A DNA stretch of 64,000 nucleotides from Mycobacteriales bacterium (GCA_038276285.1 JBBPZR010000002.1:87454-151453), one strand, 5' to 3'. Positions 38,094 through 57,563 are shown, counted from the first letter of the stretch. Notes: a model not told the origin generated them from the sequence alone. Program-made: numbers and translations.

Positions 38094-38095
38094 GC

Positions 38096-39171: not shown

Positions 39172-40545
39172 TCACCCGATGATCTTGCCGGCCTTGAGGA
39201 CTACCCAGGTGAGCTCGGGATGGACGATGTCGCTGTGTGCCCCGCTCGGTGGACCTCCTGCGCTCACGATCGCCGAAGAATCGATGTTGAGGACCTTATG
39301 GTCCTCGAATCGGTAGACCGCGTCAGGCCCGGCCGACTGTAGGGAGTCGAGCTTGGCGGACACGGCCTGGGCGCCGTCGTGCCCCATCCCACCCCAGCGG
39401 TAGAAACGGTCCTGCGCCGCCGCCGAGTCGTCCCGGGCCGCGATGGAGGCCAGCGGGTAGAACCGGCCCACGGCGTAGTCGTGTTCGGAGAAGCACACCG
39501 TGAGCGGCCCTTCGATCCGCGCGAGCAGGCCGGCCAACCCGCCCTTGCGTCCGGCGTCGAACGGCAGGCTCTCAGCGAAGGCGAAGTGCGAGAAGGCACC
39601 CTGCAGTAGGGTCAACGACCGCACCGGCGATGGCTTCGCCGCGGGCAACCCGGCCAGGGTGTACGAGACCAGGCGCGCCCCGAAGCTGTGACCGACGAGG
39701 TGCACTCCGAGTTGCGGATTGGCTTCGGCCAGGCGGCCGACGAAGGGGCCGAGACCGGCCCGACCCACGACGCCGGCTCGGTTTTTCATCTGCCAGTACG
39801 TCAGCTGGCGCAGGGCCTCCTTCGCACCCTGCCAGAGCCCCCTGAGCCGGTCGCCCAAACCGGCCTCACCGCCATCAGTGTCGGGAAGCACGCCGCTGTC
39901 GCGGAGCTGGCTGGCGTACCGGTCGAACAGGTCCCTCGGATCGTCGTCGAGCATTCGCGGTGTCCCGGCCGCAACGCCCTTCTGCGCCGATTCGCCGTCG
40001 TCCTCGTCGACAGCGGTCGCCTTCGCGAAGGCGTCCATCTCCTTCTTGAACGCGGCGAGGGCTGCCGTCGAGGGTTCCGCAGCCAACAGTTCGGCCATCC
40101 GGTCGAGGTTCCCCGCACCGTTCGGGAACATCTCACGCAGCCCCGCGAGGGTTTCCTTGTCGATCTCCGGGCTCCCCGCGGTCGCCGTTTGCCGGCTAGT
40201 CACCGCGGCCGCGTCACCGCCGGCAGTCGGTCGAGCAGCGGCCTGAAAGTCCGGGATGGGTTCGTCCGACCAGCGTTGAGACGGCCAGAAAACCCCGACC
40301 AGACCCACCTGTACCGGTCGATCGGTCCGGGCCGCGTCGAGTTGGCCGGCCAAGGTGGTGAACCAAGCGTCGTAGAGCGTGCGCGCAGTCTCTTGGCTGT
40401 TGTTCCAGCCGTGCGAGAAGACCACGAGGTCGGTCACGTCGCGCTGTTGGATTTCGTCGATGACAGCCTGGGCCCGCGCCGCGTCGGCGTCGCCCTCGGC
40501 ATCGAAGGTCAGCTGCCAGAATGGCAGTCCGGCGAGATCGGTCAT
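39172..40545 (-). CDS. Cytoplasmic alpha/beta-hydrolase (lipase/esterase-like) with a large acidic insert
   Basis: 457 aa with FSHGWNN near the N-terminus and the nucleophile elbow LVGHSFGARL. I saw no signal peptide. It is the last gene of the EACC1-caspase operon. Confidence 0.75.
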   Translation of the reverse strand: MTDLAGLPFWQLTFDAEGDADAARAQAVIDEIQQRDVTDLVVFSHGWNNSQETARTLYDAWFTTLAGQLDAARTDRPVQVGLVGVFWPSQRWSDEPIPDFQAAARPTAGGDAAAVTSRQTATAGSPEIDKETLAGLREMFPNGAGNLDRMAELLAAEPSTAALAAFKKEMDAFAKATAVDEDDGESAQKGVAAGTPRMLDDDPRDLFDRYASQLRDSGVLPDTDGGEAGLGDRLRGLWQGAKEALRQLTYWQMKNRAGVVGRAGLGPFVGRLAEANPQLGVHLVGHSFGARLVSYTLAGLPAAKPSPVRSLTLLQGAFSHFAFAESLPFDAGRKGGLAGLLARIEGPLTVCFSEHDYAVGRFYPLASIAARDDSAAAQDRFYRWGGMGHDGAQAVSAKLDSLQSAGPDAVYRFEDHKVLNIDSSAIVSAGGPPSGAHSDIVHPELTWVVLKAGKIIG

Positions 40546-40569
40546 GTCATGCCCCTTGGGGTCGTTTGC

Positions 40570-42405
40570 TCAGATGGACTGCAGCGCGCGCATCAGGTCG
40601 ACGAGGCCACCTCCCTCGAAGTTCGGGTCGCGACCGAGCGTGGTCGCCGAGTCGGTGAAGATGCGCTTGACCAGGTCGGGCCGGCCGATGAACTCGCGCC
40701 GCACGGACAGAAAGGCCGCCACCACGCCGGACACGTGCGGAGCGGCCATACTCGTGCCGCTGTCCTGAACGTAGACGGCAGCGTCCTCCTGGCCGGCCGG
40801 GAGCGAGACGGCCGCGCGCATCCGGCCGGCCGCCGCCGAGGTGATCTGTTCGCCCGGCGCGACCAGGTCCGGCTTGCGTCGGCCGTCGCCGGTGGGTCCC
40901 TTGGAGGAAAAGTACGAGACGCCGTACACGTGCGGCGAATCTCGGTGTGTCGAGCCGACGGTGATGGCTCGTTCGGCGTTCCCAGGATCGTTGATCGTCA
41001 TCGCGAGCCCAAACTGCGAGACCGTGCTCAGCTTGGGGTTCAGCGTGCCGTAACCGGAGTTGCCCGCTGCGACGACGACCACGACCCCGGTGCGCACGAG
41101 CTTGTCCACCTCCTGGCACAGGGGACTCTGGCCGCAGGCGAACCACGTCGGGTCGAAGTCGTAGCCGACGCTGAGGTTCACACCGTGGATGCGCGGGAGT
41201 TTGTCGCTCTCCGCGTTCAACTCGCGCACGTACGCCAAGGCCTCGATGACGCGGCTCACCCGGCTCTCCAGCGTTCCTCCGGCGCCGAGGACCTTGAGAC
41301 TCACCAGCTTGGCCCGGGGAGCCATCCCGTTTAGTCGCTCTTTCGGATCCGTCAGCGGCCGCGGCTGGCGCAGTGGCTCGTCGGGGTTATCGACGTTGAA
41401 GCGGTTCTCGGTGACGACTACCGCGCTCTTGTTCCACTGCCTCAGGCCGCCAGCGATGATGGCGGCGACGTGGGTGCCGTGACCGTCGGCGTCCTCGAGG
41501 GGGTCGTCCGCTTTCCCGTTCTCCGGCGGCAGAAAGCTGTGGTGCAGCTTTGCCACGGACGGGTCCGTGAGCGTGGCGTATCCCTGGAAGTGGGGATGCT
41601 TGGCGTCGATACCGGAATCGACCACCGCCCACACGACGTCGTCACCGAAGGAGTTGAACGACCGGTGAGCGGCGTCCGCCTTCACGGTGACCACCGAGGC
41701 ATCGATGAGCTTGTGCATCCGGAAGTCGGGCCAGATGCGATAGATGCTGCGCCTGGACCACACGATCGGTGCGGCGTCGGCTGCAACTAGACGCTTCATC
41801 TCTCCCAACGTCAGCACCCCGGTGGCGTACTCCTCCGCGAGCGGTTCGGGTCCCGGCCGGCCGGTTACCCGCCGCCACAGCCGGCGCAGCTCGTTCATCG
41901 CCGCTCGTGGGCCGCGCGCGTGGCGAAGGTTCAACTCGATCATCACGGGCATCGCGTCCGGGTCGTCGACACCGGCGCGCAACCGGCCATGCGCGGTACG
42001 CAGCGGCGGGGCGATCACGCCGCTGACCAGGCTCGACATGGCGGGGCGGACATCCGTCTCGCCGTCGTTGGCCAGGTCGCGCGAAGCATCCGTGCGTTCG
42101 GCCGGCTCGGCCAGCAGCCGCTGCGCCGCCTCCGCGGCTACGGCGGTGCCGTGGCTCGTCAGGCGTTTCCGGCCCCGTGGGGCAGTCTCGACCACGCCCT
42201 GGTCAACGAGTGTCGTGAAGGCGGCCAGGACGGCCGAGTGCCAGGTGGGCCGATCACCGTCGTACGTCCGATCCGTCGGCTCGAACTGGTCGGCGAACTG
42301 GACCGCGACCTCCTGGACTACCGCGTCGCCGGTGGCGGCCTTCGCTAGGTGGCTCATGGCGGAAAGGGTGCGGTCGAGCCACAGTTGCGACGGGTCGGGG
42401 GCCAT
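40570..42405 (-). CDS. Intracellular S8 (subtilisin-like) serine peptidase with an N-terminal winged-helix-like domain
   Basis: I trimmed the start to MAPDPSQLW (42405), which is preceded by a GAGAGG RBS. The triad motifs are AVVDSGIDAKHPHF, HGTHVAAIIAG and SGTSMAAPHVSG. There is no signal peptide. The N-terminal roughly 100 aa (..WHSAVLAAFTTLVDQGVVETAPRGRKRLTSHG) look like an Mrr_N-type wHTH. Confidence 0.85.
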   Translation of the reverse strand: MAPDPSQLWLDRTLSAMSHLAKAATGDAVVQEVAVQFADQFEPTDRTYDGDRPTWHSAVLAAFTTLVDQGVVETAPRGRKRLTSHGTAVAAEAAQRLLAEPAERTDASRDLANDGETDVRPAMSSLVSGVIAPPLRTAHGRLRAGVDDPDAMPVMIELNLRHARGPRAAMNELRRLWRRVTGRPGPEPLAEEYATGVLTLGEMKRLVAADAAPIVWSRRSIYRIWPDFRMHKLIDASVVTVKADAAHRSFNSFGDDVVWAVVDSGIDAKHPHFQGYATLTDPSVAKLHHSFLPPENGKADDPLEDADGHGTHVAAIIAGGLRQWNKSAVVVTENRFNVDNPDEPLRQPRPLTDPKERLNGMAPRAKLVSLKVLGAGGTLESRVSRVIEALAYVRELNAESDKLPRIHGVNLSVGYDFDPTWFACGQSPLCQEVDKLVRTGVVVVVAAGNSGYGTLNPKLSTVSQFGLAMTINDPGNAERAITVGSTHRDSPHVYGVSYFSSKGPTGDGRRKPDLVAPGEQITSAAAGRMRAAVSLPAGQEDAAVYVQDSGTSMAAPHVSGVVAAFLSVRREFIGRPDLVKRIFTDSATTLGRDPNFEGGGLVDLMRALQSI

Positions 42406-42439
42406 CGCGCTCACCTCTCGTGATCGATGGGATCGATGC

Positions 42440-44530
42440 CTACGAGCTGGGCGGGTCCGGGTTGGGCCCGCGCTGGACGGACTCTGATGAGGCAAGGCCG
42501 CGTCTTGCGCTGCGCTGCCTGAAGCCGACCAGGATGAGGGTCGCCCCGAAGATGATCAGCCAGTCTTTGACGAGGTTGTCGAGCGAACCGCGGACCAGGT
42601 ACACGATGCCGGCCGACAGGCCGACCACCGCGAGCACGGCGGAGACGATCTCCAGTCCACGTGTCGGCCGGGAGCCGCCCCTGATTGCGCCAACGATCTG
42701 GACGGGGCCATCGACCAACCAGAACATCACGACAATCGTCACCATCGTGTTCTCGGTGTCGTCATTCAGCGCGTTTGCCACGACGAGCCCCCCAGCGAGC
42801 AGCGACACCGTGGCGAGGATTTCCAACAATTGCCGCCGGCCCGCCCTGGCCTCGTCGGCGTCGAAAGACTGGATGACGCGGAGCGCGCCGTAAACGATCA
42901 ATACGAGGCCGAGCATCACGTGGCCGGCCCGGTACGGCACGTGCAAGGCCACGGCTGCCACCACGACGACGCCGCCGGCGACTATCGACGCAACGGGGGT
43001 TCGATTTGACCGGACGTGCGACCCGCCGGACGGCGTGGCTCCGAGCGGCGTCGGTGCCAGGCTGGGTATCCCCGCGGGTGTCGGGGAGTGGGCGGCCGGC
43101 TCCCGGACCGGGGCGGGTGGGTACGACGGTTCGCCCGCCGGGTGCGACGGGGAGGCTGAGGTGCGCTCGATGGCGGGCTGCGGTGCTTGCCGGGCCTCGG
43201 CGATGGGCCGGGGCGCCGGGATTGGGATCGACTCCGCCGTAACGATCGGCGTTGGATCGTGCGCCGCCGGCTCCTCCGGGCTTGGCGTCACTTCGACGTC
43301 GACAGGAATCAGGGCCTTGCCGGTGGGACCCTTGATGGCGATATTGCCGCGAAACTCGCCCGCTTGGGAGGTGTCGACCGATACGTCGAGGCCATCGGTC
43401 GTCTCCTCGATCCGGATCCAGCCCTGCGAGGGCTGGAACGTGCAGGCGCGGGCGATCGGGGGACCTAGCAGATGGATCTCACGGTGGACCGGCCTCGAAT
43501 CCTTGGCCACCTGCCCGAAGTGCAGGTCGCGCTCCCTCGTTTGGACGGCGCCCTCGCGGAGCGCCACTGCCGCGGCCTCGGCGACGTATTGGATGTCGGT
43601 GCGGGCGGTATCCTCCAGTGCGTTGTAGGCGCCTGCTGCGGCTGACAGGTCGTCGCTCGTCAGCCGTGCCCGCAGCTCGGTCACCGCACCGATGCGGGTG
43701 AACATGTTCGAGTCGGTTCGGGCGTCCTCCAGGTTCGGTGGGATGGGCAGTGGCCGGATGCGTCGCCGCCGGCTGCGGGCGAGGTACAGCTCCCCCTGCA
43801 TTTCGACGTCGCGGCTCGGCGTCTGATGCGGGTTCTGTTCGCGAACCCGGTCGAATAGGTAGTCGTACAACTCGTCTAGCGACACCCAGCCGTCCTCGTC
43901 GCGGTCGGCTTCGCCGGTGGCGAGTCCCTCCACCAGAGCGGTGGTGAACACCGATGGCTGGGGGTCGTGATCGTCGGCGAGCTGGTCGCCCTCGAAGGCG
44001 TACTCCATTGAGTTGGATGCGGTTATGACAGCCCGGCCGCGCCCACCGCCGAGCTTTCCGCCGGGAAAGCTGTCCAGAACGTTGACGTCCCCGGAACCGC
44101 GAACGGTTACACCCTGGCCGAATGCGCCCCCGTAGCAGCAATCCAGCAACAAAACGATGCTGCGCGACCGGCTCGTCCGCATGCACTGCTGGACGAAGTT
44201 CGCTGAGATCGCGGTGGAGCCAAGCCTGTTCGGGCGCGTGTTGCGGGCGGCGAAGTACAGCTCCCCGGACTCACTCTTCAGCCCGTGACAGGAGAAGTGA
44301 ACCAGGAGAACGTCGTCGGCCCGGCTCTCCGAGAACAGATCCTCGATCTGCGCCTGGACAACGTGCGCCGGCTCGTTGCGCGCCACCCGCACATCGAAGT
44401 CGCCGATCTCACGGTCGCCGAGGACACCTGCCAGCGCCTTCGCGTCCGCCGCCGGGGAGAGCAGGTGCCGCAGGCCCTCGTGTTCATAGTCGTCGCAGGC
44501 GACGATCAGTGCCTTCCGCCGGCCGTTCAC
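42440..44530 (-). CDS. Caspase-family (C14) peptidase with a C-terminal multi-TM module, EACC1-associated type
   Basis: I trimmed the start to the GTG at 44530 (VNGRRKALIVACDDY), which overlaps the EACC1 stop as GTGA. The catalytic His is in HFSCHG (codon at 44285-44287) and the Cys in LLLDCCYGG (44135-44140). After a long linker with a Pro-rich stretch, several hydrophobic helices occupy the last roughly 190 aa. Confidence 0.85.
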   Translation of the reverse strand: MNGRRKALIVACDDYEHEGLRHLLSPAADAKALAGVLGDREIGDFDVRVARNEPAHVVQAQIEDLFSESRADDVLLVHFSCHGLKSESGELYFAARNTRPNRLGSTAISANFVQQCMRTSRSRSIVLLLDCCYGGAFGQGVTVRGSGDVNVLDSFPGGKLGGGRGRAVITASNSMEYAFEGDQLADDHDPQPSVFTTALVEGLATGEADRDEDGWVSLDELYDYLFDRVREQNPHQTPSRDVEMQGELYLARSRRRRIRPLPIPPNLEDARTDSNMFTRIGAVTELRARLTSDDLSAAAGAYNALEDTARTDIQYVAEAAAVALREGAVQTRERDLHFGQVAKDSRPVHREIHLLGPPIARACTFQPSQGWIRIEETTDGLDVSVDTSQAGEFRGNIAIKGPTGKALIPVDVEVTPSPEEPAAHDPTPIVTAESIPIPAPRPIAEARQAPQPAIERTSASPSHPAGEPSYPPAPVREPAAHSPTPAGIPSLAPTPLGATPSGGSHVRSNRTPVASIVAGGVVVVAAVALHVPYRAGHVMLGLVLIVYGALRVIQSFDADEARAGRRQLLEILATVSLLAGGLVVANALNDDTENTMVTIVVMFWLVDGPVQIVGAIRGGSRPTRGLEIVSAVLAVVGLSAGIVYLVRGSLDNLVKDWLIIFGATLILVGFRQRSARRGLASSESVQRGPNPDPPSS

Positions 44531-44919
44531 TGGTCGCTCGCCCCGGCGGCGTGCCGGCCAACGAATAGCCCGATGAGCCGCTCCTGGTCGGCTGCCGACG
44601 CCTCGGAGAGTTCCAGCACGTCGCCCTCGATCTCCAGGCGGACCGTGCGACGGGTTCCTTCGCCGCGCGCGAGCCACTTCCTAATCGCGGAGACGACCGC
44701 CCGTAGGCTCTGGGCAGACCGGCCGAGCGTGATCAACAGCCCACCGGCCGCGACCACGTCGAACACCCTGGCGCCCGGCGGCGGCTCACCGGCCGGCAGC
44801 GCGGACGCTCTCTCCACGTCCAACTGGAGGAGTTCTTCGCGAAGGTATCCGATCAGGCTGTCGAGCCGCTCGGCATCCGCACCGTCTTCTCCCAGCTGAA
44901 GGCGCAATTCACCGCCCAT
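44527..44919 (-). CDS. Effector-associated constant component EACC1-like small protein
   Basis: I trimmed the start to MGGELRLQLGEDGADAERLDSLIGYLREELLQLD...VVAAGGLLITLG...RTVRLEIEGDVLELSEASAADQERLIGLF (130 aa), preceded by a G-rich RBS. The pattern matches my memory of the EACC1 family that pairs with caspase effectors. I have not verified this with an HMM. Confidence 0.6.
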   Translation of the reverse strand: MGGELRLQLGEDGADAERLDSLIGYLREELLQLDVERASALPAGEPPPGARVFDVVAAGGLLITLGRSAQSLRAVVSAIRKWLARGEGTRRTVRLEIEGDVLELSEASAADQERLIGLFVGRHAAGASDQ

Positions 44920-45084
44920 TGGCCCCCCTTCGCGCGGGTGAGGCCTTGCAGACAACACCAACACCCATGCTACCGACTGGGCCGGGCGGACAGTACGACA
45001 AACCTCGGTCGGCAACGAGACCCTTCACCGTCAAGCGTCCGGAACCGCGGCGCCAAGATAGACCTGTTTCGCGCAATGCTCCCG

Positions 45085-45876
45085 TCATCCGGCGTCCGGA
45101 CCTTCCGGTGAAACCTGCTTCGCGAATGCCCGCTTCGCGATCGGTTGCTCCGCGTCGAGTACCAACGGCTGGTCCGTTCGTGCGGCCGCCTGCTTGGCGC
45201 TGGCCAGCTCGCTGCCCGGCGTGGCGTAGATGACCTTCACGGCGCCGTTGCCGGATCCCCGGCGGTCGACCGGCGTTACCGCGGCGGGTTGGCCGTGCCC
45301 GTCGTCCACCCACAACTCGAAGTCGTCGTACTTGAAGAACGAGATCTCGGTGATCGGCCCCGGATAGTGGTGCACCCCACCGCCCTTCGGCAGCAAGCCC
45401 GTGTGCGCGTCCGCGGGCAGCGGCACGCTCGCGTTGCAGATGCTGTCGGTCCATCGCGCGACCCCGTCGGCATCGGTGATGGGGGTGTCGAGAAGACTGC
45501 GGATGCCGAGCTCCTCGACGGCCGCCGGGAACAGGGCGTAAAGCCGCCTCGCGTTCAGTCGCAGCATGTCGACCTTGGCCGGGTCCGCGCAAAACTGCGA
45601 CGACCACTCCATTCCGGCCAGGTTGCGCACGAGGAACCAGCCGTCGTCGTCCTTGAGCCACAAGCCGCCGCCGTGATGGTCCTGGTAGGGCGCCCTACCG
45701 TAGAGCAGACCGGCGACAGCCTCGGCCATCGCGACCATCCGTTTGCGGGACTTGACGTACGTCGCCGAGTCGGTGCGTCGCGGATGGCCGGGGATGTTGA
45801 TGCCCCACGGATGGTCCTCGCGTTCAATGTGCGGCTGACCCACCCCGGATGCGGAGGCACTCGGGTCACCTGTCAT
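45085..45876 (-). CDS. Hypothetical protein; no family recognised
   Basis: 263 aa. The start overlaps the stop of the catalase-related gene as ATGA, which suggests translational coupling. Third-position GC looks coding by eye. Confidence 0.7.
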   Translation of the reverse strand: MTGDPSASASGVGQPHIEREDHPWGINIPGHPRRTDSATYVKSRKRMVAMAEAVAGLLYGRAPYQDHHGGGLWLKDDDGWFLVRNLAGMEWSSQFCADPAKVDMLRLNARRLYALFPAAVEELGIRSLLDTPITDADGVARWTDSICNASVPLPADAHTGLLPKGGGVHHYPGPITEISFFKYDDFELWVDDGHGQPAAVTPVDRRGSGNGAVKVIYATPGSELASAKQAAARTDQPLVLDAEQPIAKRAFAKQVSPEGPDAG

Positions 45877-47072: not shown

Positions 47073-47096
47073 GCGATCCCCTCGTCGTTGCAGCGA

Positions 47097-47465
47097 TCAG
47101 CGCCGGGCGGCGGTCACCGCGAGCGCGGTGTTGCCCGCGGAGATCAGCGTCGTGAGCGCGGCCACCCGTGGGGGGAGCTCTCGGCGCAGCCCGGCGGTGA
47201 GCGCCGAGAGCGTGTCGGTGGCGTGGATGAGTACGGCGACACGGACCGCCCGCTCGCGCTGCTCACCGCGGAGGAGCAGCAGGTCGAAGCCGATCACCAC
47301 GGTGCGGACTCCGAACATCCGCAGCGGGTAGACGGCCGTCGGCTCACGCCTCACATCGGTGCCCAACCGGCCCAGGATGAACGCGGGCGCGACCAAGGCA
47401 ATAGTGCCGTTGACGATGCGAATGGCAGCCAGAGCGGTCCGGGCACGGTCCTGCGACAACAACAT
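47097..47465 (-). CDS. Small hydrophobic protein; first gene of the minus-strand heme operon
   Basis: I trimmed the start to MLLSQDRARTALAAIRIVNGTIALVAPAFILG (122 aa). The upstream part of the 312-aa track ORF is antisense to the plus-strand membrane protein. Confidence 0.55.
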   Translation of the reverse strand: MLLSQDRARTALAAIRIVNGTIALVAPAFILGRLGTDVRREPTAVYPLRMFGVRTVVIGFDLLLLRGEQRERAVRVAVLIHATDTLSALTAGLRRELPPRVAALTTLISAGNTALAVTAARR

Positions 47466-47505
47466 GTAAGGCAATCTGGCACCGTCGTGGCGGACCGTCA
47501 ACCGG

Positions 47506-47523
47506 CTGTCAAGTATTTGACAG
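47506..47523. promoter_or_regulatory. Palindrome in the divergent promoter region of the heme-enzyme locus
   Basis: CTGTCAA-GTAT-TTGACAG is a perfect 7-bp inverted repeat that contains TTGACA. It lies between the divergent starts at 47465 (-) and 47595 (+). Confidence 0.4.
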
Positions 47524-47594
47524 TCGTAGCCCCTTAACAAGTCAGCGTTCCCGGGCCATGCTGAAGTCAATAGTGGCGATTGGCAGGCGGACAC

Positions 47595-49115
47595 ATGGAA
47601 TCCACGAACCCGGCCCAGCAGGTTTGGCGCATGGTCATGTCCGCGCTGATCTTCGCCGTCATCCTCACGGTGCTCGCCTTCGCCACACTTCCCGGGTTCT
47701 CGTGGCAGATTCTGGCGCTGAAGGCCTTCCTGGTTTTCGTCCTCGGGCTGTTCCCGGGGTGGCTCTATCTCCAATTCATCGGTTTCAGGGCGTGGACCTT
47801 GTACGACGAATACGTCCTGAACCTGCATAGGCTGCGCATTGACGACCCACGCAACCTGCCTAAACCGCCGCCAGGTACCCCATTCTATGCGAGCTGGCGC
47901 GAGTCGCTGCCGGCCGGGATTCGGCTCGATCAGAACATCTATCTCAAGAAGTTCGAGGCCGCCTACGGCGCGTCCGCGGTTCCGCCGTCCCGGCGCGGGA
48001 ACGACGACGAGGACGCCGCTGCGATTCGCCGTCAACGGCTCACCACACAGATCAAGCAGGAACGTTTTGGACCCGTTCTATTGGCGACGGCTGTGTTCAC
48101 CGTGGGCTGGGCCACTGTGTTGCAGCCTGAGATATACCACGGCTCGTTTCTGCACCTCTTCGGCGATTTTCGACTCTCCGGACTGCCCCGGCTGCCACTT
48201 GACGCGCTCCGGATGGGCTACATCGGTTCGTACGCCTTTGTCGTGCAGTCGCTCGTCCGCCGATATTTTCAGCAGGACCTCAAGTCTCGTGCGTACGTCG
48301 GCTTCGTCGCACGCATCATCTTCGTCTCGGCCGTTGTAGTCGCGCTCCATCCGGTCTGGACTTCGCTGAAGTCAGGCGCCTCGGTCGAGGTTTCCGCGGC
48401 GTTCGTCTTGGGTTTCTACCCGGAGCTAGGACTTCGCCTGCTCAAGCAACGGGTGATGTCGTCGTTCAAGCGAGCGGCAAATGACGATGAGGAGCAGTAC
48501 CCCCTCCGAGACCTCGACGGCTGCAATCTCTGGTGCCAGGCGCGGTTGCTCGAGGAAGGCGTCGAGGACATGCAGAACCTCGTGACCGCTAACCTCGTGG
48601 ACCTGATGGTCAACACCCGGATGCCGGTGTACCGCATGCTCGACTGGATGGACCAGGCGTATCTCTACCTGCTGCTCGAGACTCCCAAAGGGACGGATTC
48701 GGCCGGGCGACGGGACCGCAGGGTGCTGCGCGGTTACGGCGTGCGGACCGCCAGCCAGCTGTGTGAGCTGGTCGAGGCGGGCGGGCCCCCGAAGTTGGTG
48801 GCCGGCCTTTCCAGGCTGCTCAACGTCGACAAGCTGGACAAGGACGACGGACTCCCCAGCCGAATCCGGGCGATGCACCGGACGCTCGGCGGCGAGGTGA
48901 ACCTCTGGCACATCCGCGCGTGGAAGCGCCGCGACTGGCTCGCCGAATCAAGACGTCCGACGACTGTCGACCTGACACCCGCCGGCCTTGTCGTTCCCAA
49001 GCCCAGACCGCAAGGAGGCGACCATGACCACCCAGCACAGGATCGGGGACCGGCAACTGCTGAGCCTCGACGGAACAGAGCTGGACAGGCTCTTCAGGAC
49101 CAGCCCGGCCGGTGA
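47595..49115 (+). CDS. Polytopic membrane protein with a C-terminal soluble helical region; family unknown
   Basis: The start is at MESTNPAQQVW. There are at least 6 hydrophobic helices in two clusters separated by a charged loop. The C-terminal part reads (..CNLWCQARLLEEGVEDMQNLVTANLVDLMVNTRM..LRGYGVRTASQLCELV) and looks like paired helix-hairpin-helix motifs. The 3' end overlaps the next gene by 92 nt. Confidence 0.65.
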   Translation: MESTNPAQQVWRMVMSALIFAVILTVLAFATLPGFSWQILALKAFLVFVLGLFPGWLYLQFIGFRAWTLYDEYVLNLHRLRIDDPRNLPKPPPGTPFYASWRESLPAGIRLDQNIYLKKFEAAYGASAVPPSRRGNDDEDAAAIRRQRLTTQIKQERFGPVLLATAVFTVGWATVLQPEIYHGSFLHLFGDFRLSGLPRLPLDALRMGYIGSYAFVVQSLVRRYFQQDLKSRAYVGFVARIIFVSAVVVALHPVWTSLKSGASVEVSAAFVLGFYPELGLRLLKQRVMSSFKRAANDDEEQYPLRDLDGCNLWCQARLLEEGVEDMQNLVTANLVDLMVNTRMPVYRMLDWMDQAYLYLLLETPKGTDSAGRRDRRVLRGYGVRTASQLCELVEAGGPPKLVAGLSRLLNVDKLDKDDGLPSRIRAMHRTLGGEVNLWHIRAWKRRDWLAESRRPTTVDLTPAGLVVPKPRPQGGDHDHPAQDRGPATAEPRRNRAGQALQDQPGR

Positions 49116-49485
49116 CTTGCCGACCGGCGACGCCGACGGGACGGTGCTGCTGTGGTCGGGCACCTGGCTAGGCCTTGCTGCAGCGCGGGTCGCGCGAGCC
49201 GTCGGCTGGCAGGGCAAGGCGTTCGATGCCGACGGACGCGGGCTCCGCAACAAGATCACGCCGTTCGGCGTGCGTGCGATCCGGGCGCAGGTCTACCCAG
49301 GGCAAAGCTGGGTTGACGGCGGCGACTGCATCGTTCTGGACTACTCGAAGAAGTCCCTGGTCGCACGCTGGGTCCGCGACGAGATTCGGCTGGTCGGGCC
49401 GGATCACTTCCTCGGTGTCGTGTGGTTGCGGCACCGGCGCGTCGCGGCATTTTCGCTGCGATTCGCTCGCGCCCTCGACGGCTGA
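49024..49485 (+). CDS. GXWXG / DUF4334-type small protein
   Basis: I trimmed the start to MTTQHRIGDR, which is preceded by CAAGGAGG. It has a GTWLG (GXWXG) motif, followed by ..NKITPFG..A.VYPG..DGG.CIVLDYS....RDEIRLVG.....GV. The family name is from memory. Confidence 0.65.
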   Translation: MTTQHRIGDRQLLSLDGTELDRLFRTSPAGDLPTGDADGTVLLWSGTWLGLAAARVARAVGWQGKAFDADGRGLRNKITPFGVRAIRAQVYPGQSWVDGGDCIVLDYSKKSLVARWVRDEIRLVGPDHFLGVVWLRHRRVAAFSLRFARALDG

Positions 49486-49492
49486 GTCCGCC

Positions 49493-50767
49493 GTGCCGCA
49501 CCAACTCGCCGTGACTGTGCGCGCACCAATCGCACCGGGGCGCAAAGCAGACGTCGTGCAATTGCTCTCCGACATCAACCGCAAGGGCGCGGCGAGCGGG
49601 CCGCTGCCCTTCGCCGAAATGGAAGGCGTGCACTTCGCGCGCTTGTTCGTGATCGACGACGCAACCGACCTCGAAGGTAGGTCGCTACCGGCCAGCCTGG
49701 TGTACATGGCCGACATCGACGCACCGCTGGGCCGTCACTGGGGTGAGCTCGCCGCCAAGGCGGGGCCTGGTCTCGACGAGGTATTCGGGCGCTGCGCCGA
49801 CTACCCCACCGAGCCGGTGACCCCGGGCGCCCGAACGGCCTGGCTCCGCGGCCACAGCGTCGCCAGCGGCGCCGTCTACGTCAACACCGTCGGCCGGGGG
49901 CTGCAGCAGATCCGGGGCGAGGCGTGGCTGCGGGAGGCGATCGAGGACTTCCTCGACGACCCCAGCGTGAGCCGGGCTCGGGCTTCCGCCACTGAAGTCC
50001 GAGCCGCCGTGCGCGAGTTCGTCGCGTCGCGCCCGGACCTGGCCTGGGCGCTGCGTCCCCCTTCTCCGCCGTCACTGGGCTTCCGACTGCGGGAAGCGGC
50101 CCACAAGGTCTGCGTCCCCCTCGTGGCGCTCCTCTTGTCACCCTTGCTGCTGCTTGCGCTGCCGGTCTGGGGGGTCTTGCTTCGCACGCATGAGCGGCGC
50201 GATGCGGCCAACCGCGAGCGTCCCAGTCTCGAACACGTGCGGATGCTCGACCGGTACGAGGATCACGCCACGCAGAACCCTTTCACCGCCGTGGGTCTGG
50301 TCAAGGGCGGGTGGTTCCGGCAACTGACGATCCGCGCGGTGCTCTACGCCACGAACTACGGCACCCGACACCTTTTCGCGAGGGGGAACCTCGCGGGCGT
50401 CAAGACGATCCATTTCGCCCGGTGGGTCAGCATCGACGACCGCCGTCGCGTCATCTTCGTGAGCAACTACGACGGCAGCCTGGAGAGCTACATGGACGAC
50501 TTCATCGACAAGGTCGCCTGGGGCCTCAACGCCGTCTTCAGCAACGGCTCCGGCTACCCGGCGACTCGCTGGCTCGTGCTCGACGGCGCGAAGGACGAGC
50601 AGGCCTTCAAGAACTACCTGCGCCGCGGGCAACTGCCGACCCAGGTGTGGTACTCGGCCTACGACACGCTCACCGCGCACAACGTCGCGACGAACGCCAG
50701 CCTGCGCGCCGGCCTATGGGCCGACCTGACGCCCGACCAGACTCGCGACTGGTTGACTCTGCTATGA
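49493..50767 (+). CDS. Hypothetical protein with two HFAR-motif halves (internal duplication)
   Basis: I trimmed the start to the GTG at 49493 (VPHQLAVTVRAPIAPG). The two related blocks are GVHFARLFVIDD (49631-49642 for HFAR) and TIHFARWVSIDD (50411-50422). The stop overlaps the DyP start as ATGA. Confidence 0.7.
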   Translation: MPHQLAVTVRAPIAPGRKADVVQLLSDINRKGAASGPLPFAEMEGVHFARLFVIDDATDLEGRSLPASLVYMADIDAPLGRHWGELAAKAGPGLDEVFGRCADYPTEPVTPGARTAWLRGHSVASGAVYVNTVGRGLQQIRGEAWLREAIEDFLDDPSVSRARASATEVRAAVREFVASRPDLAWALRPPSPPSLGFRLREAAHKVCVPLVALLLSPLLLLALPVWGVLLRTHERRDAANRERPSLEHVRMLDRYEDHATQNPFTAVGLVKGGWFRQLTIRAVLYATNYGTRHLFARGNLAGVKTIHFARWVSIDDRRRVIFVSNYDGSLESYMDDFIDKVAWGLNAVFSNGSGYPATRWLVLDGAKDEQAFKNYLRRGQLPTQVWYSAYDTLTAHNVATNASLRAGLWADLTPDQTRDWLTLL

Positions 50768-52140
50768 CGATTGAGCTGGACCTCCCCGATATCCAAGGCC
50801 TCGTCGCGCGGGGGTACGGCCAACTGCCCCATTCCCGCTTCCTGATGCTGTCGGTCACCGACCGCGCCGGCGCCCGTGAGGCGCTGAGCCGGCTACTGCC
50901 ACAGGTGACGACGGCTGACGAGCGCCCAGATGCGACGGCTCTCAATGTCGCGGTGACGGCGCACGGCCTGGCTGCGCTCGGTGTTCCGGATCGGGTCGCC
51001 GACGGTTTCCCCCGGGAGTTCCTCGCCGGCATGAGCGACCCGCACACGAGTCGTCTGTTGGGTGATCTCGACGGGTCCGCGCCGGAGCACTGGGCCTGGG
51101 GAGGGCCTGCGACGCCTCCGGTCGATGCCGCGCTGTTGACCTACGCGGCCGACGCGGCAGCGCTCGACCGGCAGTGCGACGCACTCGAACAGGATGTCCG
51201 GAGCAGCGGCTGGCGCGTCGCCGCGCGACTGGACACCCTGCCGCTGCAGCCAGACGAGCCGTTCGGCTTCCACGACGGCATCTCCCAGCCGCTGCTGGAG
51301 GGACTGCCCAGGGCGGCAGGGCGCGACGCGACCGTCCGCGCGGGTGAGTTCGTGCTCGGCTACCCCAACGAGTACGGCAAGCTCACCGACCGACCGCTCG
51401 TGGATGCCGGAGACGATCCTGCGGGCGTGTTGGCGCACAACGGCGGCCGCGACAACCGCAACGACCTCGGCCACAACGGCAGCTACCTCGTGGCGCGCAC
51501 GCTCCGCCAGGACGTCGACGGCTTCTGGCGATGGGCAAGGGAGGCGACTCGCGGCTCGGACGGCACTTCGGACGAGGCGCGCGCCGTTGCCCTCGCCGCC
51601 AAGGTGGTCGGGCGCTGGCCGAGCGGCGCATCGCTGGTCAAGACGCCCGAGGGCGACGATCCGGCTCTCGCCGACGACAACGACTTCGGCTACCACCATT
51701 CCGACCCGCATGGGTTCGCCTGCCCGATTGGCTCGCACGTACGCCGTGCCAACCCGCGCGATGCACTGGACCCCGACCCGGGTTCACCGGAGTCGATCGC
51801 CGTCAGCAACCGCCACCGGCTGTTGCGGCGCGGCCGCGTGTACCGCAATGACGACGGCGAGACCGGGCTGCATTTCCTGTGCATCGGCGCGAACCTCTCC
51901 CGCCAGTTCGAATTCGTCCAGCACACCTGGCTCGCCAACCCGAACTTCGCCGGGCTCTACGACGACGCCGACCCGCTGGTCGGCCCACGCGCTGCGCGGG
52001 GGGCGACGTTCACGGCACCCGGCCAACCCGTCCGCCAGCGCTACCGTGACCTGCCGCGGTTCGTCACCGTCCGCGGCGGCGCCTACCTGTTCCTCCCCGG
52101 TCTGCGGGCGTTGTCCTGGATCGCCGGGGACCATCCGTGA
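50764..52140 (+). CDS. Dye-decolorizing (DyP-type) heme peroxidase
   Basis: I trimmed the start to MTIELDLPDIQGLV. It has the GXXDG motif FGFHDGISQP (Asp at 51274-51276), the proximal His in GSHVRRANPRD (51736-51738) and the distal Arg context LLRRGRVY. Confidence 0.88.
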   Translation: MTIELDLPDIQGLVARGYGQLPHSRFLMLSVTDRAGAREALSRLLPQVTTADERPDATALNVAVTAHGLAALGVPDRVADGFPREFLAGMSDPHTSRLLGDLDGSAPEHWAWGGPATPPVDAALLTYAADAAALDRQCDALEQDVRSSGWRVAARLDTLPLQPDEPFGFHDGISQPLLEGLPRAAGRDATVRAGEFVLGYPNEYGKLTDRPLVDAGDDPAGVLAHNGGRDNRNDLGHNGSYLVARTLRQDVDGFWRWAREATRGSDGTSDEARAVALAAKVVGRWPSGASLVKTPEGDDPALADDNDFGYHHSDPHGFACPIGSHVRRANPRDALDPDPGSPESIAVSNRHRLLRRGRVYRNDDGETGLHFLCIGANLSRQFEFVQHTWLANPNFAGLYDDADPLVGPRAARGATFTAPGQPVRQRYRDLPRFVTVRGGAYLFLPGLRALSWIAGDHP

Positions 52141-52164
52141 GCGAATCGAGAAGAGAGGACCATC

Positions 52165-53997
52165 ATGCGCGAGGCTGACGGTCACGGTTCTGCCGGCCGG
52201 TTCCACGACACTCCCTTCTGGCGGACCTACGACCGGCTGGCCAAATGGGCCGACCGCCGGTGGGGGTGGGACCGGCTGCCCAAGCCACTTGGCTTGGCCG
52301 TGCTGATCGGCGTACGGGACCTGCTGCGCCGCGAAAACCTGTTCGACACGAGCCACGAGCCGGCCACCGACCTGCCGCCCGTCGCCGCACCGGACCCACG
52401 CCACTCGACGGCGCGCGGCATCGACGGCAGCTACAACGATCTCGCCGCACCTCGGATGGGCATGGCGGGATCGCGCTTCGGCCGCAACATTCCCCCGGAC
52501 CTCACCGCCCAGCCGGCGGTCGAGACGATCCTCTCTTCACCGAGCCCGCGCGAGGTCAGCCGGTCACTTCTGACCCGGACGACGTTCGTGCCAGCAGAGT
52601 CCGTCAACGCCCTCGTCGCCGCCTGGCTGCAGTTCATGATCCACGACTGGTTCAGCCACGGTAAGAGCCCCAAGGACGACCCGTGGGAGGTGCGCCTGCT
52701 CGACGACGACCCGTGGCCCGACCGTCCAATGAGGATCATGCGCTCGCGACCGGACCCGACCAGACCTCCCGGCGCCCGCGGACCCGCGACCTACGCCAAC
52801 TCGGAGACGCATTGGTGGGACGCCTCGCAGATCTATGGAAGCAACCGCGAGTGGCACGACTTCGTCCGCACCGGCCAGGACGGCAAGCTCAAGGTGAACC
52901 CTGACGGGACGCTGCCCAGGCCCACCCACCCTGACCACGATCCCTCCCGCGCCCCTGGCTTCTGGGTGGGCCTGTCGATGATGCAGACCCTGTTCACCCT
53001 GGAGCACAACGCGATCTGCGACCGGCTCCGGGCCGACTACCCGAATTGGGCGGACGACGACCTGTTCCAGCGCGCCCGCCTGGTCAACGCGGCCCTCATC
53101 GCGAAGATCCACACCGTGGAGTGGACGCCCGCGGTGATCAGCCACCCCACAGCGGTGACCGGCCTGCGGGCGAACTGGTGGGGCATCGCCGGCGAGCGGG
53201 TCAGCCGCCTGTTCGGCCGGCTCAGCTCCAGCGAGGTGATCAGCGGCATCCCAGGATCACGCACCGAGCACTACGGCGTTCCGTACGCCCTCACCGAGGA
53301 GTTCGTCGCCGTGTACCGAATGCACCCCCTCGTGCCCGATGACTACCGGCTGCGATCAACCGCTGACGACACCGTCTTGCGGGAATGCACCTTCCGTGAC
53401 CTCGCCGGTCCGAACGCCCTGGAGGTCGTGGACAAGATCGGCCTCTGCGACCTCTTCTATTCCTTCGGTACACAGAATCCCGGCCTTGTCTGCCTGCACA
53501 ACTTCCCGCGCTTCATGCAGGAGTTCGAGCGGCCCGACGGCATCCTGCAGGACCTGGGCGCCACCGATATCCTCCGCTCACGGGAGCTCGGCGTGCCGCG
53601 GTACAACGAGTTCCGCCGCCTACTGCACCTGCGACCCGCCAACGACTTCAACGACCTGACCGACAACCCGACGTGGGCCCGCGAGATCGAGCGCGTCTAC
53701 CACGGCGACATCGAGCAGGTCGACGTGACGGTCGGCATGTACGCGGAGAAACGGCCGAAGGGGTTCGCGTTCAGCGACACCGCGTTCAGGATCTTTGCGC
53801 TGATGGCCTCTAGACGGCTCAACAGCGACCGGTTCTTCACCACCGACTACACGCCCGCGGTCTACACGCGCACGGGTCTGGACTGGATCGCGGACAACAC
53901 GATGGCGACGGTTCTGTTGAGGCACTACCCCGGCCTTCGCCCCGCGATGCGCCAGGTCGACAACGCCTTCGCCCCATGGAAGCAAGCGTCTGGATGA
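52165..53997 (+). CDS. Heme peroxidase-cyclooxygenase superfamily fatty-acid dioxygenase (alpha-dioxygenase/COX-like)
   Basis: 610 aa. AAWLQFMIHDWFSHG carries the distal His (52642-52644). HYGVPYALTEEFVAVYRMHPLVPD carries the Y-x-x-H arrangement (Tyr 53314-53316, His 53323-53325) seen in COX and plant alpha-DOX. RSRELGVPRYNEFRRLL is also typical. Confidence 0.85.
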   Translation: MREADGHGSAGRFHDTPFWRTYDRLAKWADRRWGWDRLPKPLGLAVLIGVRDLLRRENLFDTSHEPATDLPPVAAPDPRHSTARGIDGSYNDLAAPRMGMAGSRFGRNIPPDLTAQPAVETILSSPSPREVSRSLLTRTTFVPAESVNALVAAWLQFMIHDWFSHGKSPKDDPWEVRLLDDDPWPDRPMRIMRSRPDPTRPPGARGPATYANSETHWWDASQIYGSNREWHDFVRTGQDGKLKVNPDGTLPRPTHPDHDPSRAPGFWVGLSMMQTLFTLEHNAICDRLRADYPNWADDDLFQRARLVNAALIAKIHTVEWTPAVISHPTAVTGLRANWWGIAGERVSRLFGRLSSSEVISGIPGSRTEHYGVPYALTEEFVAVYRMHPLVPDDYRLRSTADDTVLRECTFRDLAGPNALEVVDKIGLCDLFYSFGTQNPGLVCLHNFPRFMQEFERPDGILQDLGATDILRSRELGVPRYNEFRRLLHLRPANDFNDLTDNPTWAREIERVYHGDIEQVDVTVGMYAEKRPKGFAFSDTAFRIFALMASRRLNSDRFFTTDYTPAVYTRTGLDWIADNTMATVLLRHYPGLRPAMRQVDNAFAPWKQASG

Positions 53998-54500
53998 GTG
54001 CCGTCGCAAGTTCGACAAGTGGCAAGGAGACCCGGCTCGGTGCGAAGGCCGCACTCGGCCGACGCGGAGGCGCCGCGATCTATCCCGGCGTCAGATTCCG
54101 GGCGTACATTGACCGGATGGGACCGTCGCGGGTCCGTTGTCGACCACCGTCGATGCCTGGCCTCCGCGGCGAACGTCGGTGCTCAAGTGGTCGCCCTTGA
54201 AGCCGGTCTGCGACCCAGTCCGCGATTCGTTGCCCAAATCGGCCCCGATGTCGCCCCGCGGGATCGAGGTGGGTCACGACTCGCGCCTGACAGCTGGTGT
54301 CCCCCCGCGCATGGTGAAGTGGCGAGACACCAGGTCGTTGTCGTGGGCAGCGCCACACCGGCGTGGGCCCGTAGGGGGTCTCATGATCGTTCGTTTCCGG
54401 CGACGGGTGCTGGTTTCGGGCGGAACGGGCGCGCGGTCTCCACCGGGTTCGGGCCTCATCCGTGACCAAGCCGCAAGCCGAGGCAATGGGAGATTCACGC

Positions 54501-57485: not shown

Positions 57486-57563
<78 letters not shown>

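What the first reader, a model, noticed from the sequence alone, without database searches (positions are those of the whole stretch)
39172..53997. Possible functional linkage between the death-type protease module and the lipid-oxidising heme locus
Seen in the sequence: seven consecutive minus-strand genes run from the small hydrophobic protein (47465) through the catalase-related protein and a hypothetical protein, then EACC1, caspase, S8 and the alpha/beta hydrolase (39172). The only sizeable gap in this run is 165 bp. The DyP/dioxygenase arm diverges from the same promoter region. Inference only: a lipase-like hydrolase could release fatty acids, a dioxygenase could peroxidise them, and hydroperoxide-transforming enzymes could act next to a membrane-anchored caspase. 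Together these would have the ingredients of a lipid-peroxidation-linked cell-death or signalling system. I know of no such system described in bacteria. The adjacency could equally be coincidental packing within one island.
Basis: inference. Interest (0 to 1): 0.7.

Follow-up and report, generated by a model that had tools for sequence, protein, structure and literature searches.

The report
Lipid-oxidising heme cassette with gated lipase
A widespread six-gene cluster of heme enzymes that probably oxidises fatty acids keeps a fat-splitting enzyme next to it; in this genome that enzyme is a hydrolase paired with a protease, and the caspase 'death' genes between them look like a later, unrelated insertion.

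Summary
The gene order is as described: seven co-directional minus-strand genes with one 165-bp gap, and a diverging DyP/dioxygenase arm.

The proposed linkage is only half right. The heme locus is a conserved six-gene cassette: small membrane protein, catalase-related protein, 153-aa protein, 424-aa protein, DyP and alpha-dioxygenase. I found it in more than 60 other soil-actinobacterial loci, in several gene orders.

The position next to the cassette holds a lipid hydrolase in 34 of the 39 loci where it can be judged:
- 25 have a membrane patatin-like phospholipase.
- 4 have the same S8 protease + alpha/beta-hydrolase pair as this window.
- The rest have other lipases.

The closest relative (hydrolase 75% identical) runs catalase-related, S8, hydrolase with a 28-bp gap. 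So the hydrolase and its protease are genuinely and repeatedly linked to the cassette, most likely as a protease-gated lipase that feeds the dioxygenase.

EACC1-caspase is absent from all 82 other cassette loci. It occurs elsewhere as a self-contained two-gene module, and here it appears inserted, together with DUF6424, between the catalase-related gene and S8.

Elsewhere the hydrolase family is partnered with S8 or with CHAT-STAND proteases, which is the published protease-activated effector logic. All biochemistry is inferred.

The parts
39172..40545 (-). Alpha/beta hydrolase (457 aa). It is the protease-partnered effector-type hydrolase that occupies the cassette's 'lipase slot'.
   Evidence: Weak Pfam hits to DUF900 and Abhydrolase_1. 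Ser287/Asp356/His437 and the HG oxyanion motif are invariant in 21 homologues and kept in distant cassette-linked copies. The AF2 model (pLDDT 77, pTM 0.83) has an a/b core plus a helical insert at roughly residues 96-275. Top Foldseek hits are lipases, LCAT and cutinases, but none is significant (E >= 0.02).
40570..42405 (-). Intracellular-type S8 subtilase (611 aa) with a roughly 250-aa N-terminal domain of unknown family. It is the constant upstream partner of the hydrolase.
   Evidence: Peptidase_S8 1e-41. The D/H/S motifs (VVDSG, HGTHVA, SGTSMA) are read directly in the translation. S8 lies directly upstream and co-directional in about 20 hydrolase loci.
42440..44530 (-). Caspase (C14) with a middle domain and a C-terminal multi-TM region. 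It is the EACC1-associated type.
   Evidence: NCBIfam NF047832 at 160 bits against a cutoff of 140. Peptidase_C14 7e-16 and a DUF308-like TM region. The HFSCHG and DCCYGG dyad motifs are in the translation. It is absent from all other cassette loci.
44527..44919 (-). EACC1 small protein (130 aa). Its stop overlaps the caspase start by 4 nt.
   Evidence: Pfam EACC1 match over nearly the full profile length, but only 14.5 bits, below threshold. There is a 41%-identical homologue upstream of the homologous caspase in Nonomuraea. The hydrophobic VVAAGGLLITLG patch is read in the translation.
44920..45084 (-). 165-bp intergenic gap between DUF6424 and EACC1. It is a possible internal promoter and one edge of the lineage-specific insertion.
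   Evidence: Sequence read. The consensus promoter/terminator scan found nothing in the gap and is not informative for this GC content.
45085..45876 (-). DUF6424 protein (263 aa), translationally coupled to the catalase-related gene. It is not a regular cassette member.
   Evidence: PF19988 5e-69. In 80 genome loci anchored on DUF6424, none has any cassette gene. It has no conserved neighbour.
45873..47072 (-). Catalase-related hemoprotein (399 aa), the anchor of the cassette.
   Evidence: More than 5,300 homologues at about 80% identity, named 'catalase family protein' by NCBI. A diverse profile hits MAP_2744c 3e4w at 3e-14, catalases, and coral allene oxide synthase. All top-50 Foldseek hits have the catalase fold, though the model has pLDDT 52. 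Proximal Tyr373 and Arg369 are kept. Asn102 replaces the distal His of the wider family.
47097..47465 (-). Small hydrophobic protein (122 aa, DUF4267-like). Cassette member.
   Evidence: Weak DUF4267 hit. Homologues are present in the cassette in more than 30 loci.
47595..49115 (+). 506-aa membrane protein. It is not a regular cassette member.
   Evidence: No family hit. The only homologue in 160+ loci lies next to DUF6424 in L051.
49024..49485 (+). 153-aa protein. A conserved cassette member, usually just upstream of the catalase-related gene.
   Evidence: GC3 frame shift and an AAGGAGG ribosome-binding site. Homologues at 41-51% identity are found in most cassette loci. No Pfam hit.
49493..50767 (+). 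424-aa protein of unknown family. Cassette member, always just upstream of DyP.
   Evidence: Conserved at 48-59% identity in the cassette loci. No Pfam, PDB or DyP-profile relationship.
50764..52140 (+). DyP-type heme peroxidase (458 aa).
   Evidence: PDB 8re3 5e-60. The FGFHDGISQP motif and the His of GSHVRRANP are invariant. DyP fused to the catalase-related domain exists in the wider family.
52165..53997 (+). Fatty-acid alpha-dioxygenase-like heme protein (610 aa).
   Evidence: An_peroxidase 2e-109. Arabidopsis and rice alpha-DOX structures hit at 6e-115 and 1e-111. The FMIHDW, VYRMH and RRL..DRFFT motifs align with alpha-DOX.

Best explanation
The region combines three units with different histories.

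(A) A conserved six-gene heme cassette: small TM protein, catalase-related protein, 153-aa protein, 424-aa protein, DyP and alpha-dioxygenase-like protein. It most likely converts free fatty acids into oxidised products. The alpha-dioxygenase would make 2-hydroperoxides, and the catalase-related and DyP hemoproteins would transform or reduce them.

(B) The S8 protease + alpha/beta hydrolase pair. It fills the cassette's 'lipase slot', which in most genomes holds a membrane patatin-like phospholipase. I infer that the hydrolase is a latent lipase or esterase whose helical insert is removed by S8, so that fatty-acid supply to the cassette is gated by proteolysis.

(C) The EACC1-caspase pair, a self-contained two-gene conflict module in which the caspase cleaves EACC1 to make a membrane pore (published for a homologue). 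In this lineage it has been inserted, next to DUF6424, between the catalase-related gene and S8.

Shown here: the gene content, the conservation of the cassette, the recurrent adjacency of lipolytic enzymes including S8-hydrolase, and the absence of EACC1-caspase elsewhere.

Inferred: all enzymatic activities, the proteolytic gating, and the direction of the insertion event.
For: Cassette:
- Catalase-related homologues in 82 other loci are flanked by the same five genes in at least three orders.
- The alpha-DOX catalytic motifs are kept, as are the DyP motifs.
- The catalase fold and the proximal Tyr are supported.
- DyP fused to the catalase-related domain exists.

Lipase slot:
- Of the 39 loci where it can be judged, 25 have the patatin-like protein, 4 S8-hydrolase, 2 Abhydrolase_3, 1 a PF04185 phosphoesterase, 1 patatin+DUF3376, and 1 a patatin nearby. 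Only 5 have none.
- The 1.39-Mb control set, anchored on DUF6424, holds no homologue of that patatin or of the hydrolase.

S8-hydrolase:
- It sits next to the cassette in four different configurations, involving two divergent hydrolase subclades (36-44% and 75% identity).
- In L164 the gap from the catalase-related gene to S8 is 28 bp.
- The triad is invariant, and the model shows an a/b core plus a helical insert.
- The family is partnered with S8 in about 20 loci and with CHAT-STAND proteases in cyanobacteria. This matches the published protease-activated alpha/beta-hydrolase zymogen logic.

EACC1-caspase:
- Found in 0 of 82 cassette loci and in none of the S8-hydrolase loci.
- It stands alone in Nonomuraea. 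A Streptomyces plasmid carries a related caspase, preceded by an overlapping 130-aa gene and flanked by transposases, with no cassette nearby.
- It is described as a two-gene system, and caspase cleavage has been shown to activate pore formation by EACC1.
Against: - In most sampled contexts (about 12 of 19) the S8-hydrolase pair stands without the cassette, so it is not dedicated to it.
- Lipase activity is unproven. Structural matches to lipases are not significant (E >= 0.02), and the published relative's substrate is unknown.
- Metagenome contigs are short: 43 of 82 loci could not be judged, and several loci are near-duplicates of one lineage.
- A tblastn search with one 130-aa EACC1 has limited reach. 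The caspase domain would have been found.
- Some observations hint at a wider tie between the cassette and conflict systems, which this explanation treats as incidental: CHAT-TPR genes near the cassette (L118, L145), SLATT/TIR/patatin beside it (L082), and an An_peroxidase-family gene beside a hydrolase-C25-CHAT-STAND system in Nostoc.
Confidence: 0.6

Rival explanations
1. All twelve genes form one integrated system in which the membrane-anchored caspase and EACC1 act together with lipid release and peroxidation to kill the cell or to signal.
For: All seven minus-strand genes are co-directional with short gaps, and EACC1-caspase sits inside the run rather than beside it. The hydrolase family is partnered with caspase-like proteases elsewhere: CHAT in Planktothrix and Nostoc, and a caspase in the published Lysobacter example. 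A CHAT-TPR gene abuts the hydrolase-S8 pair in L118.
Against: EACC1-caspase is in none of the 82 other cassette loci and none of about 20 S8-hydrolase loci. The closest relative lacks it, with only 28 bp between the catalase-related gene and S8. The caspase is of the EACC1-associated type, whose partner is EACC1. The pair occurs alone elsewhere.
Confidence: 0.1
2. Pure coincidence. The cassette lies in a variable region where unrelated accessory genes accumulate, including S8-hydrolase, EACC1-caspase, DUF6424 and a toxin-antitoxin pair.
For: Flanks of the cassette differ widely between loci. A PIN/RHH pair, a tRNA-Ala and a low-GC segment lie nearby. S8-hydrolase is usually found without the cassette.
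Against: There are five further adjacent S8-hydrolase occurrences in four configurations, against none in 1.39 Mb of control DNA. The same slot holds four other lipolytic families, mostly on the same strand with gaps under 210 bp. That functional theme is not expected from random packing.
Confidence: 0.15
3. S8-hydrolase is purely a conflict (abortive-infection type) effector pair, and the cassette is a stress or detoxification locus. They are neighbours because both respond to membrane damage, not because one feeds the other.
For: Protease + alpha/beta-hydrolase pairs are published as protease-activated death effectors. Cyanobacterial homologues sit in CHAT-STAND systems. The S8 matches PADLOC's generic subtilase model.
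Against: In the actinobacterial loci the S8 has no recognisable sensor domain, and the loci examined show no other recognised defence genes nearby. This model does not explain why patatin, PLC-type and Abhydrolase_3 enzymes take the same position.
Confidence: 0.15

Closest known systems
[quoted passage not shown] 2014, as cited in PMC13049297). Coral allene oxide synthase-lipoxygenase is a related case (PDB 1u5u, 3dy5).
   Same: A cyclooxygenase-superfamily heme dioxygenase is encoded next to a small catalase-related hemoprotein that acts on its fatty-acid hydroperoxide. The catalase fold and the proximal Tyr are kept here.
   Different: Here the dioxygenase is alpha-DOX-like (6e-115 to plant alpha-DOX). 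The catalase-related subfamily has Asn in place of the distal His. The cassette also carries a DyP, three proteins of unknown family, and an adjacent lipolytic enzyme. No product has been determined.
Protease-activated alpha/beta-hydrolase zymogen modules (Evans et al., bioRxiv 10.1101/2025.11.14.688446)
   Same: A cytoplasmic alpha/beta hydrolase is encoded next to a dedicated protease. It has a lipase-like fold and an internal segment that could be excised. Homologues of the family are partnered with CHAT-STAND proteases.
   Different: The partner here is an S8 subtilase without a recognisable sensor, not a caspase-like protease. The hydrolase is 457 aa, against roughly 295 aa estimated from the fragment sizes reported. 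Sequence homology to the characterised Lysobacter protein could not be tested. Adjacency to a fatty-acid-oxidising cassette is not described there.
EACC1-caspase two-gene membrane-associated conflict system (Kaur et al. 2020, eLife, 'System 4'; mechanism in Evans et al. 2025)
   Same: A 5' EACC1 gene overlaps a 3' gene with an N-terminal caspase and a variable C-terminus carrying TM helices. The host is an actinobacterium.
   Different: Nothing in the pair itself is unusual. Only its position, inside an operon-like run between a catalase-related gene and S8, is new, and that was seen in this genome alone.
Plant fatty-acid alpha-dioxygenases (PDB 4hhr, 4kvj)
   Same: Full-length alignment with the distal His, catalytic Tyr, proximal His and Arg-Arg motifs conserved.
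   Different: This protein is bacterial, sits in a multi-heme-enzyme cassette, and its activity is untested.

Membership tests
EACC1-caspase two-gene system | The 3' gene has an N-terminal caspase of the EACC1-associated type with a His/Cys dyad. | tested here: met
   NF047832 at 160 bits, cutoff 140. HFSCHG and DCCYGG are in the translation.
EACC1-caspase two-gene system | The 5' gene encodes an EACC1 domain. | tested here: inconclusive
   PF19953 matches profile positions 4-99 of 107, but at 14.5 bits against a threshold of 23.6. Supporting evidence: a 41%-identical homologue lies in the same position in Nonomuraea, and the two genes overlap by 4 nt.
EACC1-caspase two-gene system | The caspase cleaves EACC1, which then forms membrane pores. 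| not testable with these tools
   Shown only for the Ktedonobacter homologue in the literature.
Protease-activated alpha/beta-hydrolase zymogen | The hydrolase is encoded next to a dedicated protease, and the pairing is conserved. | tested here: met
   S8 lies directly upstream in about 20 loci. CHAT-STAND lies downstream in two cyanobacterial loci.
Protease-activated alpha/beta-hydrolase zymogen | Sequence homology to the characterised Lysobacter capsici hydrolase. | not tested
   The main text gives neither the sequence nor an accession; the supplementary files were not examined.
Protease-activated alpha/beta-hydrolase zymogen | Double cleavage at conserved sites removes an inhibitory middle fragment, and the fragments are toxic. 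| not testable with these tools
   Only suggestive here: the model shows a disordered stretch at 96-122 and a helical insert up to about residue 275, between the N-terminal strands and the nucleophile strand.
Fatty-acid alpha-dioxygenase | An_peroxidase fold with distal His, catalytic Tyr and proximal His (YRMH), and an Arg-Arg carboxylate site. | tested here: met
   2e-109 to PF03098. The alignment to 4hhr shows FMIHDW, VYRMH and SRRL..DRFFT.
Catalase-related hydroperoxide-transforming hemoproteins (cAOS, MAP_2744c type) | Catalase core fold with a proximal Tyr ligand. | tested here: met
   Profile A4 hits 3e4w at 3e-14 and catalases down to 4e-8. All top-50 fold hits have the catalase fold, from a low-confidence model. 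Tyr373 and Arg369 are near-invariant.
Catalase-related hydroperoxide-transforming hemoproteins (cAOS, MAP_2744c type) | Distal His next to the heme. | tested here: not met
   The wider family has RxxHxKxHG. This subfamily has RFGNTKTFG, with Asn102 at the His position.
DyP-type peroxidase | GXXDG motif with the catalytic Asp, and a proximal His. | tested here: met
   8re3 at 5e-60. FHDGISQP and GSHVRRANP are invariant in four cassette DyPs. Pfam scores alone are below threshold.
Patatin-like phospholipase (the usual occupant of the slot, in other loci) | Patatin domain with GGGxR, GxSxG and DGG motifs. | tested here: inconclusive
   PF01734 at 26.0 bits against a 27.7 cutoff, E 1e-5. The three motifs are read in the translation.

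The most novel reading that the evidence does not exclude
The heme cassette together with its adjacent lipase is a regulated effector that oxidises the cell's own membrane lipids. It would be a bacterial counterpart of oxylipin alarm signalling or ferroptosis-like death. In the S8-hydrolase variants it would be triggered by proteolysis. Conflict-system proteases (EACC1-caspase here, CHAT-TPR in L118 and L145, CHAT-STAND with an An_peroxidase gene in Nostoc) would then gather around it because they feed into the same lipid-damage pathway.
Probability: 0.15. Interest if true: 0.85.

Novelty: new variant of a known kind. Interest (0 to 1): 0.6.

Why it matters
- It defines a very common, highly conserved soil-actinobacterial gene cassette. 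The catalase-related member alone has more than 5,300 protein clusters at about 80% identity. Three heme enzymes sit next to a lipase, which makes a bacterial oxylipin or alpha-oxidation pathway directly testable. In the searchable literature I found no description of it.
- It offers a concrete substrate hypothesis, acyl lipids, for the protease-partnered alpha/beta-hydrolase effectors whose target the 2025 study left open.
- It shows that the eye-catching caspase/EACC1 adjacency is probably an insertion. That saves effort on a caspase-lipid-peroxidation model supported by this one genome.

Tried and rejected
- DUF6424 as cassette anchor. None of the 80 loci had any cassette gene, so DUF6424 is not part of the cassette. 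The set then served as a control.
- Direct sequence and 16-sequence-profile searches of the catalase-related protein against PDB found nothing. A more diverse profile was needed.
- The AF2 model of the catalase-related protein is poor (pLDDT 52). I use it only for the unanimous catalase-fold ranking.
- The 424-aa protein has no Pfam, NCBIfam or PDB relative, and hhalign against the DyP profile gave probability 0.2. My guess that it is DyP-like is rejected.
- The consensus promoter/terminator scan of 38.9-48 kb found fewer sites than in shuffled sequence and none in the gap, so it is uninformative.
- No direct repeat of the tRNA-Ala 3' end marks an island border.
- PADLOC gave only generic subtilase and caspase hits.
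- Brash et al. 2014 could not be read.
- The organism name could not be recovered. All four proteins looked up (catalase-related, hydrolase, caspase, EACC1) are singleton clusters without names.


Full report
**Observation.** On the minus strand:
- small hydrophobic protein, 47097-47465
- catalase-related protein, 45873-47072
- DUF6424 protein, 45085-45876
- EACC1, 44527-44919
- caspase with a C-terminal membrane region, 42440-44530
- S8 subtilase, 40570-42405
- alpha/beta hydrolase, 39172-40545

Gaps and overlaps along the run are 24 bp, a 4-nt overlap, 165 bp, a 4-nt overlap, 34 bp and 24 bp. An independent gene call on a public contig of the same sequence agrees (L081).

The plus arm starts 129 bp from the small hydrophobic gene. 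It holds a 506-aa membrane protein, a 153-aa gene (49024-49485), a 424-aa gene, DyP (50764-52140) and an An_peroxidase protein (52165-53997). The finding's text does not mention the 153-aa gene.

**Family assignments.**
- S8: Pfam 1e-41.
- Caspase: NCBIfam 'caspase, EACC1-associated type', 160 bits against a cutoff of 140.
- EACC1: a match over nearly the full profile length, but below threshold.
- DyP: PDB 8re3, 5e-60.
- An_peroxidase protein: a close relative of plant fatty-acid alpha-dioxygenases (6e-115). The distal His, the YRMH Tyr/His motif and the Arg-Arg motif all align.
- 'Catalase-related' needed work. There was no Pfam hit and no PDB hit with the single sequence or with a shallow profile. 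A profile of diverse relatives, taken from an exhaustive search, hits the Mycobacterium avium catalase-related protein 3e4w at 3e-14, true catalases at 1e-8 to 1e-5, and coral allene oxide synthase at 7e-6. A low-confidence AF2 model retrieved only catalase-fold structures, with allene oxide synthase first.
- The subfamily keeps the proximal Tyr/Arg but has Asn where the wider family has the distal His.

**The heme locus is a conserved cassette.** The catalase-related protein has more than 5,300 relatives, most about 80% identical. I collected 80 metagenome loci anchored on it, plus two contexts from long contigs. In these loci:
- The same five partners recur: small TM protein, 153-aa protein, 424-aa protein, DyP and alpha-DOX.
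- They appear in at least three gene orders.
- DUF6424 and the 506-aa membrane protein are not part of the cassette. Eighty genome loci anchored on DUF6424 contain no cassette gene, and DUF6424 has no conserved neighbour.
- DyP fused to the catalase-related domain in single polypeptides exists elsewhere in the family, which supports functional coupling of these two enzymes.

**A 'lipase slot'.** I clustered the flanking ORFs. In 25 loci an 830-980-aa membrane protein lies immediately downstream of the catalase-related gene or immediately upstream of the small TM gene. It is on the same strand, at distances from an 87-bp overlap to a 208-bp gap. It carries the GGGxR, GxSxG and DGG motifs and a just-sub-threshold Patatin match.

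Other occupants of the same position:
- a 1,153-aa patatin+DUF3376 protein (L104)
- a PF04185 phosphoesterase of the phospholipase-C/acid-phosphatase family (L089)
- an Abhydrolase_3 esterase/lipase (L152, L163)
- homologues of this window's S8 + hydrolase pair in four loci (L087, L118, L119, L125)

Of the 39 loci where the flanks allow a judgement, 34 have such an enzyme and 5 do not. In 1.39 Mb of control DNA (the DUF6424 loci, largely the same phyla), that patatin and the hydrolase have no homologue.

**S8-hydrolase and the cassette.** The four metagenome cases show three arrangements:
- upstream on the same strand
- upstream and divergent
- downstream and convergent

Their hydrolases are only 36-44% identical to the window's. 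They share its whole architecture and its catalytic Ser/Asp/His.

Anchoring on the hydrolase instead gave a 75%-identical relative on a 13.9-kb contig, L164. There the 153-aa, 424-aa, DyP, alpha-DOX, catalase-related, S8 and hydrolase genes form one tight plus-strand run. Only 28 bp separate the catalase-related gene from S8, and there is no DUF6424, EACC1 or caspase. In Modestobacter italicus the pair lies 6.4 kb from part of the cassette.

In about a dozen other contexts, S8-hydrolase stands alone. These include Rhodococcus, Rhizobium and Burkholderia plasmids. The link is therefore recurrent but not obligatory.

**What the hydrolase is.**
- It has no signal peptide.
- The HG oxyanion motif, the GHSFG nucleophile, Asp356 and His437 are invariant.
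- The AF2 model (pLDDT 77, pTM 0.83) shows an a/b core interrupted by a disordered stretch (96-122) and a long helical insert up to about residue 275.
- The best structural matches are lipases, LCAT, cutinases and acyl-peptidases, but none is significant.
- S8 is always directly upstream. In two cyanobacterial plasmids, homologues are instead followed by CHAT-nSTAND1 proteases, in Nostoc together with a C25 peptidase.

A swappable protease next to a latent a/b hydrolase is the logic Evans et al. (2025) showed for a Lysobacter caspase/hydrolase pair. There, double cleavage removes a middle fragment and the product kills cells. [quoted passage not shown] Direct homology to that protein could not be tested.

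**EACC1-caspase.**
- Neither gene has a homologue in any of the 82 other cassette loci or in the S8-hydrolase loci.
- The nearest caspase relative available (53% identity, Nonomuraea gerenzanensis) has an EACC1 homologue directly upstream and no cassette, S8 or hydrolase within 12 kb. On a Streptomyces plasmid, a related caspase is preceded by an overlapping 130-aa gene and sits among transposases.
- Kaur et al. (2020) describe EACC1 + caspase as a self-contained, membrane-associated two-gene system of actinobacteria, with variable C-termini that often carry TM helices.
- Evans et al. show that caspase cleavage releases a pore-forming EACC1 fragment.

The simplest reading is that EACC1-caspase, alongside DUF6424, was inserted into an L164-like catalase-related-S8-hydrolase run.

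**Mechanism proposed (inferred).** A lipolytic enzyme releases fatty acids from acyl lipids. The alpha-DOX converts them to 2-hydroperoxides. The catalase-related protein and DyP transform or reduce these. The roles of the three small or unknown proteins are open. In the S8-hydrolase variant, the supply step is held latent until S8 removes the insert. EACC1-caspase acts on its own.

**Residual hints of a broader connection.** These keep a more novel reading alive at about 15%:
- CHAT-TPR genes near the cassette in L118 and L145
- SLATT/TIR/patatin genes beside it in L082
- an An_peroxidase-family gene 0.9 kb upstream of the hydrolase in the Nostoc CHAT-STAND locus

**Limits.**
- No expression data were available.
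- The promoter scan was uninformative.
- Contigs are short and partly redundant.
- All enzymology is inferred.
- I found no paper describing this cassette in the searchable library. The nearest precedent is the Nostoc 10S-dioxygenase with a catalase-related lyase.

Noticed in passing
window 49024-49485 (+): A 153-aa gene with a strong ribosome-binding site overlaps the 3' end of the 506-aa membrane-protein ORF by about 90 nt. It is a conserved cassette member, usually just upstream of the catalase-related gene. It has a GTWLG motif but no Pfam hit. The public gene call on L081 starts it later, giving 122 aa.
   Followed up: partly
window 47595-49115 (+) and 45085-45876 (-); L051 8780-10736: The two genes that are extra to the cassette in this window, the 506-aa membrane protein and DUF6424, are direct co-directional neighbours in one other locus (L051; 37% and 69% identity). 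They may have been a pair before rearrangement.
   Followed up: partly
window 45873-47072 (-): This very abundant catalase-related subfamily has Asn102 (RFGNTKTFG) where the wider family has the distal His (RxxHxKxHG). That suggests chemistry different from catalases and from coral allene oxide synthase.
   Followed up: partly
proteins P0366, P0375, P0433, P0480; P0428, P0432, P0437: Relatives of the catalase-related protein occur fused to DyP domains. Others are fused to RoxA-like cytochrome c domains.
   Followed up: partly
L082 11210-16526: In one MAG, the catalase-related gene is followed by SLATT, DUF4231/SLATT, TIR_2 and a 526-aa patatin. That set looks like a conflict system using a phospholipase.
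   Followed up: no
L118 2-1048; L145 344-3031: Homologous CHAT-TPR (caspase-like) proteins lie next to the cassette in two loci. One abuts the hydrolase-S8 pair.
   Followed up: partly
L181 (Nostoc sp. MS1 plasmid) 2177-11185: An An_peroxidase-family gene lies 0.9 kb upstream of a hydrolase homologue. That homologue is followed by a C25 peptidase and a CHAT-nSTAND1-WD40 protein, and a transposase flanks the peroxidase gene.
   Followed up: partly
L169 (Modestobacter italicus) 7178-20539: Here the S8 partner is fused to a Peptidase_M8 domain (930 aa). A glutamyl-tRNA reductase (heme synthesis) gene lies between the S8-hydrolase pair and the partial cassette.
   Followed up: no
window 53998-57562: About 1.1 kb after the alpha-DOX gene has no convincing coding frame. 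It is followed by a TPR + C-terminal TM protein (55121-57361, GC3 only 0.65) and a tRNA-Ala (57486-57562, minus strand). The segment has 64% G+C against about 69% for the window. No tRNA-derived direct repeat was found.
   Followed up: partly
window 31398-31505: There is a perfect 12-nt tandem repeat (GTCGCGGAAGGG, about 7-8 copies) between the methionyl-tRNA synthetase gene and the next minus-strand gene. On the minus strand it would read PFRD repeats if translated.
   Followed up: no
window 37872-38512 (+): A PIN-domain toxin (38096-38512) lies just left of the hydrolase end of the run. An RHH_1 antitoxin-like gene is called upstream of it on L081, and a 73-aa ORF at 37872-38093 fits that call.
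   Followed up: no
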